Assembly: GCF_037042905.1 (NCBI RefSeq)
Contig: NC_087246.1
Span: forward strand, 48,546,001 to 48,610,000
Source of the DNA: Lytechinus pictus
Lineage: Eukaryota
DNA: 64,000 nt
Direction of reading: 5' to 3'
Shown: in pieces, positions 16,869 to 33,721 of the stretch
How positions within the stretch are numbered: the stretch's first letter is position 1
Layout: every line of letters begins with the position of its first letter
Notes under the pieces: model-generated
Databases searched by the model: none
Told to the model about the DNA's origin: nothing
What the model saw: the letters and a program-made list of their open reading frames with translations, nothing else
Position numbers and translations under genes: made by a program

Positions 16869-17228
16869 ATGGAAAGGATGGAAAATATATCAATACACAT
16901 CGTTGTCTTCTTGGTTGGTATGAGCGTGTTGTTGACGAGATGCAAAGGATTCGAATCAAATGAAAGTTTCATCCTTGGACCACCCTTACATCGAACTCGA
17001 GATGACCCTCCTGTCTTTGGGATAAGAGACCATAAAACAGACATCGATGACTTCGAAAATACACTCCCAGGTAACGTCAATGATGATGGAATAGCATCTA
17101 AAGTTCAGAGTCAACGTCGGTATCGTAGATCTACAGATTTCTCTTCGGAAGAGAGCGCGTCACTCGTCGATAAGCATAATGAATTAAGAGGACAGGTATC
17201 CCCAGAAGCTTCCAATATGGAGTTCATG
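16869..17228 (+). CDS. CAP gene exon 1: signal peptide, acidic prodomain, furin site RRYRR|S, start of CAP domain
   Basis: MERMENISIHIVVFLVGMSVLLTRCKG... then KHNELRGQVSPEASNMEFM (CAP3 motif HNxLR). Donor ATG|gtgaga, phase 0. Confidence 0.92.
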
Positions 17229-32200: not shown

Positions 32201-33721
32201 TCTACAAGTCATGTGTATGTAAACAAGGATGTTTATTGATGTCTCGTTGTATGCATTTTTTTAATTTGTATAAAGTGCACATTTCCCTTGTAGAAGATAT
32301 TTTATTTTCTTCCGGCTCTATCTCTTGAAAATTTAATTTCATTTCGTTATTTCCATTTCCAACATTTACAATATATTTTGTTCCATACATCTTGAAATAT
32401 ATATATAAGCAATAAGACAAAGAAAATTTCTATGTACACTATAATCAAGATAATCATAAAAACAGGTTGGGAATGGATGAGGCTGCTAAAACGCGGAGTT
32501 TGTAGAGTGCAGCCTCCTATTACATTATTCATATAAATAGTGTAAACCAAATGGAATATCTTATAGAAACCTAAAAATTGCTCTTGTAGATTTTTTTTAC
32601 CAGTGGCGTACAGATGGGGTGGGGGCTTGGGGCGCTTACCCCCAAGGTTTTTCACGACCAACGAAAAGAGAGAGAGAGGGAGAGAGGGAAAGGGAAAGAA
32701 AAGCAAAGAGAGAGAAGGTGAAATATGATATTTTTGACTGAATTATTATGTCAAAATCCATCACGAATTTGGATTTTTAAAATAAAAATGTCGAAAATTT
32801 TACTCGCTTCCTTCGCTTCCTCGCAACTTAAAAAAAAATTTCTCGATACGCCATATTTGGCCCCTCAACTTTTTTGGATCATTACGCCACTGGATGTTAC
32901 CTCTCTTAAAGCTCTGAATATTTAACACAGACGATTTTTTATTGATTTTTTTTAACTATTTTGTTTTGCAGTCTCTTATCTGGATCAGGAAGCCTTATAT
33001 TCCGCAGTCACAGAAAATCTTGATATCATTGAACTCGAACTCAATATGACCATCGAGGAAATCGTTATGGGAGAGGTCATGAGCGCTCCGTCCGAATTGT
33101 CAGCCGCAGTCATCGTCGGGATCGTCGTCGCTTCCGTCGTCGTTTCCATTACCATTATCATTGGTGTGTTCATTTTCATACAGAAAAGGTAAACCTTTAT
33201 CCCGGACCTTTATCATATCAAATGAGTTGATTACCATGCCAATGTTTCTTTTTCTTGTTCTTGTTGAGGTTTTGAGTTATATTTATATAGGTAACTGGCC
33301 CCGAAACTTAAAGTCAAAGTTTTCATGGCTAGTAGAAGGTGAATAGAGAGATGAAGATAAGAAACAGAATTATTTCGTCAAGGAAGGGGAGGGGATTGAC
33401 TGAATGTATCCCCAGAATCTTCCACTGCTCAACTTTATTACATTTATGATTAATACGTTTCATCAGTACACAAACCCCTCACCCACAAGCTATTGGTGGT
33501 AAATGTAGGTTACATCATATAAAGGAAGGAGTATAATGTTTAAGGAGTTTTTGAAAATTTCAATCTTTTGAACTGATGAATATGTTTTTAAGAATATTCA
33601 TTTAGAAACATATCGATGTTATAATCTTATGATTTCCTCTTTTTCTCTCTCTCCAAACAGCACAACTGCAACCAAAGTCCGTCCAATATCGTCCAGTTGG
33701 AAACCGGCAGTGATAAAATAA
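16869..33721 (+). CDS. Whole gene span: 15-exon, 956-aa CAP-EGF-ShKT-mucin-EGF-SEA-like-TM type I membrane protein (CRISP/CLEC18-like)
   Basis: Exons 16869-17228, 20506-20742, 21778-21893, 22588-22679, 23418-23447, 24155-24244, 24950-25066, 25353-25379, 26028-26999, 27863-28024, 28876-28934, 29834-29940, 31724-31947, 32972-33188, 33661-33721. They sum to 2871 nt with no internal stop. All introns are GT-AG with matching phases. Confidence 0.85.
18845..19020. repeat. Compound microsatellite (GAA, GATA/GACA)
   Basis: Directly visible; a CAC/CAT tract follows at about 19680-19790. Confidence 0.9.
20506..20742 (+). CDS. CAP gene exon 2: CAP domain core
   Basis: taaag|IWDDDLAIMAQEWSDTCYFAHG...LGQNLW...AWYNEVQYYDY...CGHYTQ|gtaaaa. 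Confidence 0.95.
20859..21423 (+). mobile_element. 5'-truncated Tx1/L1-type LINE 3' end with poly(A) and 16-bp TSD
   Basis: aagattttagtatgcg at 20843-20858 and 21424-21439. AATAAA at 21391 and A18 run at 21408-21425. Begins with KKKNKLPAHFKKWRFTL*, typical of a Tx1-like ORF2 C-terminus. Confidence 0.85.
21778..21893 (+). CDS. CAP gene exon 3: CAP1/CAP2 motifs
   Basis: tacag|VVWASSYAVGCGRSLCEFATSESSNYTNVYIITCNYGPA|gtaagt, phase 0 to 2. Confidence 0.95.
21972..22190. mobile_element. CACT-ended palindromic MITE (EnSpm-like, 2-bp TSD TA)
   Basis: ta|cactctaaattgcagggattt ... aaatccttgcaattcagagtg|ta. Confidence 0.7.
22588..22679 (+). CDS. CAP gene exon 4: end of CAP and CRISP-type hinge
   Basis: tcag|(A)GNYVGSQPYDDGPSCTQCDSGVALCYNNLC|gtatgt, phase 2 to 1. 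Confidence 0.93.
23418..23447 (+). CDS. CAP gene exon 5: 30-nt micro-exon (NECSLEEQGC)
   Basis: cttttttcccctaccag acceptor and G|gtaaga donor, phase 1-1. Confidence 0.8.
24155..24244 (+). CDS. CAP gene exon 6: EGF-like domain
   Basis: ttcag|ECRVSCENCATISNNCTCECRDGWYGTDCS|gtaaat, phase 1-1. Confidence 0.9.
24950..25066 (+). CDS. CAP gene exon 7: ShKT domain
   Basis: ttccag|TECADTHQYCWNSPGWPGPEYCDVHNAVPKRCPYMCGLC|gtaagt. Six Cys with CxD start and CPxxCxxC end, phase 1-1. Confidence 0.9.
25353..25379 (+). CDS. CAP gene exon 8: 27-nt micro-exon (NLADPDFVC)
   Basis: ttttctttttatag acceptor and G|gtaagt donor, phase 1-1. Confidence 0.8.
26028..26999 (+). CDS. CAP gene exon 9: Ser/Thr-rich mucin-like stalk
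   Basis: ccaccag|GSSTTQMATAQ... open for 972 nt. Donor AAAG|gtgatc (weak), phase 1-1. Confidence 0.85.
26087..26845 (+). repeat. Coding minisatellite, 11 x 69 bp (23 aa)
   Basis: Unit MTTSSPNQ(G/E)(D/E)(S/G)ST(T/S)V(P/L)SMTSTAT; ctaatcaag recurs every 69 bp. Confidence 0.97.
27037..27432. mobile_element. TA-flanked MITE 35 bp into intron 9
   Basis: ta|cccctttcataaacccaataaaacc ... ggttttattgggtttatgaaagggg|ta, a perfect 25-bp TIR. Internal gcggataat repeats. Confidence 0.85.
27863..28024 (+). CDS. CAP gene exon 10: second EGF-like domain
   Basis: aatag|VSTFSTG...CDDIICQNGGTLEEVSCTCLCANGYQGDACQ|gtaagt, phase 1-1. Confidence 0.88.
28876..28934 (+). CDS. CAP gene exon 11
   Basis: tacag|NLESEAQYGVEITIQASIDM|gtaaat, phase 1 to 0. 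Confidence 0.8.
29315..29446. mobile_element. Short Harbinger-like MITE (same family as 37855-37984)
   Basis: TIR ggggtccgtaac.caaa / tttgtgttacgggcc; inverted-orientation sister at 37855. Confidence 0.65.
29834..29940 (+). CDS. CAP gene exon 12 (SEA-like membrane-proximal region)
   Basis: catcag|WQSIRGLLIRVVAEIVTDWCNINFSVCCPSQGEKN|gtaatc, phase 0 to 2. Confidence 0.8.
30101..31060. mobile_element. HINE/Helentron-like element with ~164-bp tandem units, interrupted by a SINE
   Basis: Terminal hairpin gtctcgcttgcatagcagagcgagac pairs with subterminal gcaggcgagac (31029-31039). aggtcacatga recurs three times. Confidence 0.7.
30377..30665 (-). mobile_element. tRNA(Met-like)-derived SINE
   Basis: Minus strand reads gtggtccagtggttagagcattggactCATaatcgcaaggttgtgagttcgaatcccaac (A and B boxes). 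Body and aacagaaac tail are shared with 61197-61465. Confidence 0.8.
31724..31947 (+). CDS. CAP gene exon 13: membrane-proximal region with furin site RRRR|S
   Basis: accag|SEEILDYVNETDIAIAVGYP...ELCNSGSLSRRRRSARLTLSNIQKRSSETE|gtactc, phase 2 to 1. Confidence 0.85.
32601..32892. mobile_element. G-string hAT-like MITE (related copy 19984-20239)
   Basis: cagtggcgta ... tacgccactg TIR with internal G/GA runs; degenerate 8-bp TSD. Confidence 0.65.
32972..33188 (+). CDS. CAP gene exon 14: transmembrane helix
   Basis: ttgcag|VSYLDQEALYSAV...SAAVIVGIVVASVVVSITIIIGVFIFIQK|gtaaac, phase 1 to 2. Confidence 0.9.
33661..33721 (+). CDS. CAP gene exon 15: short cytoplasmic tail and stop
   Basis: Long pyrimidine tract ending aaacag, then STTATKVRPISSSWKPAVIK*. 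The stop TAA overlaps an AATAAA. Confidence 0.8.

What the first reader, a model, noticed from the sequence alone, without database searches (positions are those of the whole stretch)
16869..33721. Membrane-tethered CRISP-like protein: CAP-hinge-EGF-ShKT head on a mucin stalk
Seen: a full 956-aa reconstruction that the ORF track shows only in fragments. Known: vertebrate CRISPs are secreted CAP + hinge + ShK-like ion-channel-regulatory proteins acting in fertilisation and venom. CLEC18 proteins are CAP + EGF + C-type lectin, and the exon-6 EGF (CRVSCENC..CTCEC..GWYGTDC) resembles the CLEC18 EGF as I recall it. This protein combines both heads and raises them on a roughly 330-aa O-glycosylated stalk with a TM anchor, an architecture I do not recognise as characterised. 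Inference: a cell-surface presenter of a lipid-binding CAP domain and a channel-modulating ShK domain (gamete, ciliary band or immune surface). This is the best candidate for a novel system in the window.
Basis: partly seen in the sequence, partly recalled or inferred. Interest (0 to 1): 0.7.

Follow-up and report, generated by a model that had tools for sequence, protein, structure and literature searches.

The report
Sea-urchin CRISP-like protein on cleavable stalk
This real, spliced sea-urchin gene encodes a CRISP-like head (CAP, EGF and ShK domains) on a serine/threonine-rich stalk, a predicted SEA-type base with a conserved, likely furin-cut loop, and one membrane helix, so it likely displays and can shed a ligand-binding head at the cell surface; the same layout occurs in other echinoderms, an acorn worm, amphioxus and an annelid, and our searches found no study of it.

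Summary
The gene is real: 15 GT-AG exons give 956 aa, identical to RefSeq XP_063951073.1, and spliced contigs from two studies join exons 2-9 and 9-15. The whole domain order recurs in urchins, sea stars, crinoids, a hemichordate, amphioxus and Owenia; only the long repeat stalk is Lytechinus-specific. The CAP-EGF-ShKT head is already described as a secreted mollusc protein type, and tethered CAP proteins are known (GLIPR1, Urabin, Pry3). Channel blocking is unsupported: the ShK domain is acidic and lacks the Lys-Tyr dyad. Best reading: a furin-matured, mucin-type surface tether that displays and likely sheds a conserved CAP head. Ligand and tissue are unknown. Ten literature searches found no study, and this scan's notes showed no earlier report of the family. 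New variant of a known kind; interest 0.45.

The parts
16869..17228 (+). Exon 1 (aa 1-120): predicted signal peptide, about 60-aa propeptide ending in R-Y-R-R (aa 84-87, 17118-17129), first helix of CAP
20506..20742 (+). Exon 2 (aa 121-199): CAP core with tetrad-equivalent H141, Q155, E179, H196
   Evidence: Pfam CAP E 2.1e-9; joint to exon 3 in X1, X5; conservation
21778..21893 (+). Exon 3 (aa 200-238): CAP C-terminal strands
22588..22679 (+). Exon 4 (aa 238-269): end of CAP and four-Cys hinge
   Evidence: aligns with GLIPR1 3q2r to residue 269
23418..23447 (+). Exon 5, 30-nt micro-exon (aa 269-279): two-Cys linker
   Evidence: both joints in X1, X5
24155..24244 (+). Exon 6 (aa 279-309): EGF-like domain 1 with one extra Cys (C287)
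   Evidence: Pfam EGF_2 E 0.054; joints
24950..25066 (+). Exon 7 (aa 309-348): ShKT-like six-Cys domain, acidic, no Lys-Tyr dyad
   Evidence: Pfam ShK E 0.096 over 37 of 37 positions; joints
25353..25379 (+). Exon 8, 27-nt micro-exon (aa 348-357): linker with lone Cys356
   Evidence: joints in X1, X5; Cys kept in 42 of 48 heads together with C287
26028..26999 (+). Exon 9 (aa 357-681): Ser/Thr stalk, one open 972-nt exon
   Evidence: 5' joint, 3' joint
26083..26849 (+). 69-bp tandem repeat, 11.1 copies, 90% matches, coding a 23-aa Ser/Thr unit
   Evidence: shorter in the L. variegatus orthologue, non-repetitive in Diadema, absent in crinoid
27863..28024 (+). Exon 10 (aa 681-735): end of stalk and EGF-like domain 2
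   Evidence: Pfam EGF_2 E 0.0012; contig pieces
28876..28934 (+). Exon 11 (aa 735-754): first strand of the SEA-like domain
   Evidence: model strand 742-750; length fit in contig
29834..29940 (+). Exon 12 (aa 755-790): long helix and Cys cluster of the SEA-like domain
31724..31947 (+). Exon 13 (aa 790-865): SEA-like strands and disordered loop with R844-R847 (31884-31895) and K858-R859
32972..33188 (+). Exon 14 (aa 865-937): last helices and strand of the SEA-like domain, transmembrane helix (about 33103-33180)
33661..33721 (+). Exon 15 coding part (aa 937-956, stop): short cytoplasmic tail; 3' UTR runs on to at least 34394

Best explanation
This gene encodes a 956-aa single-pass protein whose CAP-hinge-EGF-ShKT head sits on a Ser/Thr stalk above an EGF and a predicted SEA-like domain, and it likely works as a furin-matured, mucin-type tether that displays, and can likely shed, a conserved ligand-binding head at the cell surface. 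Steps: (1) shown: gene, splicing, domain order, conservation. (2) Predicted: signal peptide removal, O-glycosylation of the stalk. (3) Inferred from conserved motifs: a proprotein convertase trims the propeptide after R87 and cuts the SEA loop after R847 (perhaps also after R859). (4) Inferred from the model: the membrane piece supplies the last helices and strand of the SEA fold and has no extracellular cysteine, so the two pieces would be held only non-covalently, as in KIAA1549 or Notch, and the head could be released by force or a second protease. (5) Inferred from the CAP family: the CAP domain is the working part and binds a lipid (sterol or fatty acid) or a protein partner; EGF and the acidic ShKT module are likely a disulfide-locked structural or binding extension rather than a channel blocker. 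The 22-aa unconserved tail argues for display rather than signalling.
For: Gene and splicing. SEA-like fold: AF2 model confident only at about 742-800 and 870-897 (pLDDT 64-84 by blocks); top VIA hits over 737-905 are PCDH15 MAD12 (Z 9.1, rmsd 3.9, 102 aligned), CELSR1 (8.4), a nucleoporin chain (7.6), IA-2 (7.5), MUC16 SEA (7.1), GPR126 (7.0); repeated with the L. variegatus piece (Z 8.2, rmsd 2.7, 87 aligned); Atlas structure hits SEA protein TM 0.62, KIAA0319, collectrin. Furin-type motif in 32 of 41 SEA-type domains against 1.3 from shuffles (rows are related and hand-picked), and before CAP in 17 of 18. Last extracellular Cys is C837. Furin processing in a membrane-proximal SEA-like domain is shown for KIAA1549 (PMC13570299, passages). 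CAP identity to Diadema 129 of 158 against 90 of 168 for SEA and 20 of 47 for TM+tail. H103, H141, E179, H196 kept in 23 of 23. CAP lipid binding: PMC4921858, passages.
Against: No protein, localisation or ligand data. Z 9.1 is only a little above the typical best chance Z of 7-8 and Pfam SEA is not hit. The model of the head failed (pLDDT about 30), so nothing structural is shown for CAP, EGF1 or ShK. 9 of 41 SEA-type domains lack the strict motif, and four GPI-like paralogues lack the loop altogether, so cleavage is not universal. One tetrad glutamate is Gln in 22 of 23 members, so metal-dependent lipid binding as in Pry1 may differ. The C287-C356 bond could not be shown by covariation (Fisher p 1.0). 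Shed ectodomain was not detected even for KIAA1549.
Confidence: 0.55

Rival explanations
1. One reading: a surface presenter of a channel-modulating ShK domain (Kv or CatSper type), acting like a tethered CRISP.
For: Six-Cys ShKT pattern over the whole Pfam model, best PDB match the channel-modulating MMP23 domain (E 0.32); the dyad is neither necessary nor sufficient for channel action (PMC6409789, passages).
Against: Net charge -2; 42 of 56 family ShK domains are net negative and only 3 of 56 have a basic-aromatic pair in the dyad loop, none Lys-Tyr; Ala-Val at the MMP23 Arg-Leu positions; the conserved residues are a Gly-Trp-Pro motif and Cys-Pro; the domain lies between other domains, 345 aa above the base.
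Confidence: 0.15
2. A gamete-surface adhesion protein like ascidian Urabin or mammalian GLIPR1L1, binding the egg coat or acting at fusion.
For: Urabin is a GPI-anchored CAP protein on the sperm head (PMC9265791, passages); tethered CAP inhibits yeast mating (PMC7340583, passages); nearest vertebrate relatives are GLIPR1/GLIPR1L1; two raw RNA runs showed no exon cover, which fits restricted expression.
Against: CAP is 157 of 158 identical between the two Lytechinus species and 82% to Diadema, unlike fast-evolving species-specific gamete proteins (own knowledge); tissue of the runs is unknown.
Confidence: 0.15
3. The membrane form is only a precursor: furin cleavage releases a soluble CAP-mucin into mucus or coelomic fluid, where it acts in defence.
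For: Conserved double basic sites in the loop; many relatives with the same head have no anchor; RefSeq holds shorter read-through models.
Against: The cut lies inside a folded domain to which both pieces contribute; a whole EGF-SEA-TM base is kept across phyla; no contig supports a truncated transcript.
Confidence: 0.1
4. Annotation artefact: two neighbouring genes (secreted CAP gene, mucin-TM gene) fused by prediction.
For: L. variegatus RefSeq splits the locus into 387-, 666- and 204-aa models; no single contig spans exon 9.
Against: Exon 8-9 and 9-10...15 joints in contigs; exon 9 is one open frame; single-chain orthologues with short or no stalk in Diadema, sea stars, crinoids, Ptychodera, Owenia.
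Confidence: 0.03

Closest known systems
Mollusc CAP-ShK type II proteins (CreCAP-ShK 4-7; Conus Mr30/Tex31 clade), PMC6409789, passages
   Same: Signal peptide, short low-complexity spacer before CAP, CAP followed by EGF-like and ShK-like Cys modules
   Different: Those are secreted gland proteins of 295-452 aa with no stalk, SEA-like domain or TM; module order varies there but is fixed here
Vertebrate GLIPR1 / GLIPR1L1 (PDB 3q2r)
   Same: Best solved-structure match (E 3.6e-38, residues 99-269); CAP + hinge, membrane-anchored
   Different: No EGF, ShKT, stalk or SEA; Glu where this family has Gln155; separate clade in the quick CAP tree
Vertebrate CRISPs (venom CRISPs in PDB)
   Same: CAP + hinge + ShK-like domain
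   Different: CRISPs are secreted with the ShK-like domain directly after the hinge and terminal (own knowledge); here a two-Cys linker and an EGF intervene and 600 aa follow
KIAA1549 and membrane mucins (MUC1 type), PMC13570299, passages
   Same: Type I protein, long O-glycodomain, membrane-proximal SEA-like domain cut during maturation (furin in KIAA1549)
   Different: No CAP head; long signalling tails there, 22 aa here; this SEA subtype has four conserved Cys and no sequence match to Pfam SEA
Yeast Pry3 (PMC7340583, passages) and ascidian Urabin (PMC9265791, passages)
   Same: CAP domain tethered at the cell surface; Pry3 on a Ser/Thr region of more than 600 aa
   Different: GPI anchors, no EGF, ShKT or SEA-like domain
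CLEC18 (CAP-EGF-C-type lectin; architecture recalled, Pfam content seen)
   Same: CAP followed by EGF; weak model-to-model likeness over 276-333 (TM 0.37)
   Different: No C-type lectin domain here; not among the 120 listed homologues
Uncharacterised RefSeq/GenBank relatives: Diadema setosum XP_072169425.1, S. purpuratus LOC589695 and LOC752066, Antedon XP_071958483.1, Ptychodera P0023, Branchiostoma XP_078601219.1, Owenia CAH1779786.1
   Same: Same domain order and Cys scaffold, furin-type loop, TM
   Different: Stalk 0 to about 150 aa instead of 345; tails differ; all unnamed, none found in print

Membership tests
CAP superfamily | CAP domain above Pfam cut-off | tested here: met
   PF00188 69.6 bits, cut-off 21.1, full profile
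CAP superfamily | Cavity tetrad His-Glu-Glu-His (PMC4921858) | tested here: not met
   Three of four kept (H141, E179, H196 in 23 of 23); second position is Gln155 in 22 of 23, Glu in GLIPR1. Mapping is by sequence order and the GLIPR1 alignment; the tetrad is not required for membership
CAP superfamily | Sterol or fatty-acid binding | not testable with these tools
   Head model unusable; needs binding or yeast export assay
CRISP subfamily | Secreted CAP + hinge + directly following terminal ShK-like domain (definition recalled) | tested here: not met
   Linker and EGF lie between hinge and ShKT; stalk, EGF, SEA-like, TM follow
CLEC18 | C-type lectin domain after CAP-EGF | tested here: not met
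   No Lectin_C hit at E up to 1; residues after EGF are ShKT and stalk
GLIPR1 subfamily | CAP + hinge directly followed by TM or GPI; one clade | tested here: not met
   640 further extracellular residues; groups with an echinoderm-hemichordate clade (SH-aLRT 92), GLIPR1 rows apart (quick tree)
ShKT domain | Six cysteines in ShK spacing | tested here: met
   C311, C318, C330, C340, C344, C347; Pfam ShK 13.7 bits, below cut-off 20.9, 37 of 37 positions
ShKT channel blockers | Lys-Tyr (or Arg-Leu) dyad | tested here: not met
   Ala335-Val336 at the aligned positions; none of 56 has Lys-Tyr
ShKT channel blockers | Channel inhibition in assay | not testable with these tools
   needs electrophysiology
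SEA / SEA-like domains | Ferredoxin-like fold next to the membrane | tested here: met
   Top rows PCDH15 MAD12 Z 9.1, CELSR1 8.4, IA-2 7.5, MUC16 SEA 7.1; margin over chance is modest
SEA / SEA-like domains | Sequence match to Pfam SEA (PF01390) | tested here: not met
   No hit at E up to 1; Atlas feature score 0.76, lead only
SEA / SEA-like domains | Cleavage within the domain | tested here: inconclusive
   R-X-K/R-R conserved in a low-confidence loop; cleavage itself not testable; no MUC1-type autoproteolysis motif seen (motif recalled)
Membrane mucins | Ser/Thr-rich tandem-repeat domain plus TM | tested here: met
   345 aa, 51% S+T, 11.1 repeats; not a family trait: absent in crinoid orthologues
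Membrane mucins | Dense O-glycosylation | not testable with these tools
   predicted from composition only

The most novel reading that the evidence does not exclude
An undescribed gene family as old as the protostome-deuterostome ancestor: a CAP-EGF-ShKT head on a furin-split SEA base that works as a releasable, possibly force-sensitive surface reservoir of a CAP protein, kept in echinoderms, hemichordates, amphioxus and annelids, not found in vertebrates, and close to the ancestral form from which shorter vertebrate CAP proteins (GLIPR1, CRISP, CLEC18) were cut down. Its Cys-rich, furin-looped SEA subtype is a portable anchor, also found under CLCA-like, VWD-EGF and TSP1-EGF ectodomains, for which no Pfam family exists.
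Probability: 0.2. Interest if true: 0.7.

Novelty: new variant of a known kind. Interest (0 to 1): 0.45.

Why it matters
How CAP proteins act at membranes is a long-open question; most are secreted or GPI-anchored. Here a conserved invertebrate family puts a CAP head on a base built to be cut, which would give a natural switch between tethered and released CAP, testable in a tractable sea-urchin model. It also defines an unannotated SEA subtype used by several unrelated marine-invertebrate surface proteins, and it shows that automatic names such as 'HEG1-like' or 'venom protein-like' hide one family. It is still a new combination of known parts with no functional data.

Tried and rejected
No RNA holder on record was listed for the stretch. 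Joint table was filled by an interspersed repeat, so the 3' joints were read from contig pieces. AF2 on the full protein failed for the head (mean pLDDT 36), so no fold search bears on CAP, EGF1 or ShK; both fold jobs are used. A word-index search with the Diadema EGF-SEA-TM region found only 2 proteins and missed known members, so it says nothing on range. Covariation of C287 with C356: 42 of 48 have both, 4 only the first, 2 only the second, p 1.0; inconclusive. CAP tree (57 rows, quick method, careful search unfinished) and SEA tree (41 rows, quick) do not resolve whether annelid and deuterostome members share one origin; no CRISP or CLEC18 rows were available, and no one-clade test was run. 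Absence in vertebrates, tunicates, arthropods and nematodes rests on 120 of 152 listed rows and 43 profile hits of which 21 were named by look-up or earlier calls; it is not proof. Two of the 43 hits (P0166, P0170) had no SEA match and were dropped as false. A domain-only alignment for the remote tools was not obtained; the SEA profile was built from one L. variegatus fragment and paralogue exons, which lacks the first strand and limits reach. Proteoglycan reading rejected: 1 Ser-Gly in the stalk. Literature: 0 papers; 0 papers for six locus ids; listings; PMC7037938 and PMC12516323 (passages, and 2 supplements of the latter) do not mention the family; Pei and Grishin 2017 is not held and was seen only as a reference entry. 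Subscription journals and most supplementary gene lists (older SPU ids) were not searched and may list these genes.
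Full report
1. The observation. Reading the window gave 15 exons from 16869 to 33721 on the + strand. All 14 introns are GT-AG, the phases fit, and the frame is open for 956 codons. The product is letter for letter RefSeq XP_063951073.1, 'uncharacterized protein LOC129278518' of Lytechinus pictus. 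Contigs from runs X1 and X5, of two studies, skip every intron between exons 2 and 9, including both sides of the 30-nt and 27-nt micro-exons (some sides are only 28-29 letters). In X5 and X8 a single contig carries the end of exon 9, exon 10, a 163-letter piece that fits exons 11 and 12, then exons 13, 14, 15 and the 3' UTR. Two raw RNA runs, 6 in 100 of each read, did not cover the exons. L. variegatus RefSeq splits the locus into three models (387, 666, 204 aa), which the contigs and the single-chain orthologues contradict.

2. Anatomy. Hydrophobic N-terminus; propeptide ending R84-R87; CAP 100-235 (Pfam E 5.6e-19); four-Cys hinge to 268; two-Cys linker; EGF1 280-307 with one extra Cys; ShKT 311-347; lone Cys356; stalk 358-702 (345 aa, 51% Ser+Thr, 11.1 copies of a 69-bp unit); EGF2 704-733 (E 0.0012); domain 735-902; TM about 909-934; 22-aa tail. 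It has no Pfam match, but it is the only confidently modelled part of the AF2 model, and its best structural matches are membrane-proximal SEA-type domains: PCDH15 MAD12 (Z 9.1, rmsd 3.9, 102 aligned), CELSR1 (8.4), IA-2 (7.5), MUC16 SEA (7.1), GPR126 (7.0), with TMPRSS6, TROP-2 and the Notch2 regulatory region lower. The L. variegatus piece folded alone gives the same top four and the Atlas points the same way. That these entries are SEA-like is partly in their titles and partly recalled from Pei and Grishin 2017, which I could not read. Z 9 is only modestly above chance level, so the assignment is likely, not certain. The loop 841-865 is low-confidence in the model and holds R844-R847 and K858-R859; the fold alignment spans both sides of it, and the last extracellular cysteine is C837.

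3. Relatives. A profile search with six full-length members returned 152 proteins, 120 listed. Local domain profiles find CAP-hinge-EGF-ShKT-EGF-SEA-TM in Diadema (3 proteins), S. purpuratus, a Lytechinus paralogue, Asterias (3), Acanthaster, the crinoids Antedon and Anneissia, and the hemichordate Ptychodera. A SEA-side profile against 1.84 billion representatives gave 43 hits; of these, Owenia (2), Branchiostoma, Acanthaster, Amphiura and a further S. purpuratus gene carry CAP and the same Cys scaffold, and Dimorphilus and Ridgeia carry CAP-hinge-stalk-SEA-TM without EGF1 and ShKT. Others put the same base under CLCA-like (L. pictus), VWD-EGF (Antedon), EGF-TSP1 (a bivalve) or sushi-EGF (Branchiostoma) ectodomains. 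No vertebrate, arthropod or nematode was among the named hits. The head alone, secreted or with a C-terminal hydrophobic end, is common in echinoderms and annelids. The stalk is the variable part: none in crinoids, 70-150 aa in most, 345 here. In this genome 13 CAP exon-2 matches were found, 9 on the same contig, and SEA-side matches lie downstream of four of them on that contig. In a quick CAP tree the protein pairs with the Diadema orthologue (99) inside an echinoderm-hemichordate group (92); annelid placement is unresolved; the SEA tree is no better. Single origin in the bilaterian ancestor is therefore inferred from the shared domain order and Cys pattern, not shown by a tree.

4. Signs of function. 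R-X-K/R-R occurs in 32 of 41 SEA-type domains against 1.3 expected from shuffles (a hand-picked, related set), at the same loop in the 18-protein alignment, often with a second basic pair 10-25 residues on; four short paralogues with GPI-like ends lack the loop. A second such motif precedes CAP in 17 of 18. Identity to Diadema falls from 129 of 158 in CAP to 26 of 39 in ShKT, 90 of 168 in SEA and 20 of 47 in TM and tail. Three tetrad residues are invariant in 23 of 23 members; the fourth is Gln in 22 of 23 (tetrad as defined in PMC4921858, passages). The ShKT domain has net charge -2; 42 of 56 family domains are negative, 3 of 56 have a basic-aromatic pair in the dyad loop and none has Lys-Tyr; Ala-Val stands where MMP23 has Arg-Leu. 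The dyad is not an absolute rule, and non-channel roles are proposed for other ShKT proteins (PMC13273113, passages).

5. Mechanism. Most likely (0.55): a type I glycoprotein matured by a proprotein convertase at both ends of its ectodomain, held together through the split SEA-like domain, displaying a rigid CAP-EGF-ShKT head above the cell surface and able to lose it. Shown: gene, splicing, domain order, motif conservation. Predicted: signal peptide, TM, SEA fold, glycosylation. Inferred: cleavage, non-covalent association, shedding, lipid or protein binding by CAP. Rivals: tethered channel modulator (0.15), gamete adhesion protein (0.15), precursor of a secreted mucus protein (0.10), fused annotation (0.03). 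The gamete reading is compatible with the architecture and differs only in where it acts.

6. Comparison with what is known. Secreted CAP + EGF + ShKT proteins are described in the vampire snail, in one clade with Conus Mr30 and Tex31 (PMC6409789, passages). Surface-tethered CAP proteins are known: GLIPR1 (closest structure), Urabin (PMC9265791, passages), Pry3 on a long Ser/Thr region (PMC7340583, passages). A glycodomain over a furin-cut, membrane-proximal SEA-like domain is shown for KIAA1549 (PMC13570299, passages). The protein is a CAP superfamily member but fails the tests for CRISP, CLEC18 and GLIPR1 subfamilies. Ten full-text searches found no paper on this combination or on six of its locus ids; subscription papers and most supplements were out of reach. 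Earlier notes of this scan describe other urchin proteins on SEA-type bases (8 of 1090 shown) but none on this family.

7. Verdict. Observation confirmed; interpretation partly supported and corrected. New variant of a known kind: an apparently undescribed, cross-phylum family built from known parts. Interest 0.45; most novel case 0.2 probable, 0.7 if true.

Noticed in passing
P0150, P0151, P0175, P0178 (L. pictus and L. variegatus RefSeq CLCA1-like proteins): Sea-urchin CLCA-like proteins end in the same EGF + Cys-rich SEA-like + TM base; one paralogue keeps two furin-type motifs, the other has none.
   Followed up: partly
P0032, P0034, P0035, P0036, P0039: Echinoid paralogues with the same head have a shortened SEA-like domain without the furin loop and a C-terminal hydrophobic end like a GPI signal: a natural uncleaved control.
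   Followed up: partly
G000:C2, 11.7-68.5 Mb: Nine of 13 CAP exon-2 matches lie on this contig. The CAP exons at 45.73 and 60.38 Mb sit 44-72 kb upstream of SEA-side exons that RefSeq may annotate as separate CAP-less genes (P0137, perhaps P0140): likely split models.
   Followed up: partly
L025:4230-4475 (G000:C2:48622226-48622471, 12 kb beyond the window end): A second, divergent CAP exon (38% identical to exon 2) on the same strand about 42 kb downstream of this gene; no other family exon in the 10 kb taken.
   Followed up: partly
P0029 (Asterias amurensis), P0047, P0051, P0053: Same head with other tails: repeated EGF-ShKT units in P0029; hemopexin domain (PF00045) in the other three.
   Followed up: no
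Atlas row for residues 257-353: Nearest models are nematode MAB-7-like proteins with EGF and ShK (TM 0.45-0.48, under the bar): an EGF-ShKT tandem on a membrane protein may be a wider unit.
   Followed up: partly
window:27030-27435 and window:30120-31060: Two high-copy interspersed repeats in introns 9 and 12 (contig depth in the thousands to 100,000); the first begins and ends with inverted copies of one motif, like a MITE.
   Followed up: no
window:1804-2226, - strand: 141-aa open stretch with a weak ELMO_ARM match (E 0.0019, 18.5 bits, below cut-off): possibly an exon of a neighbouring gene.
   Followed up: no
window:26850-26999, 31724-31947, 32972-33188: Contigs from other individuals differ from the window at 10-12 letters per exon piece: high allelic variation in the stalk end, SEA and TM exons against 0-5 in the CAP to ShK exons.
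   Followed up: no
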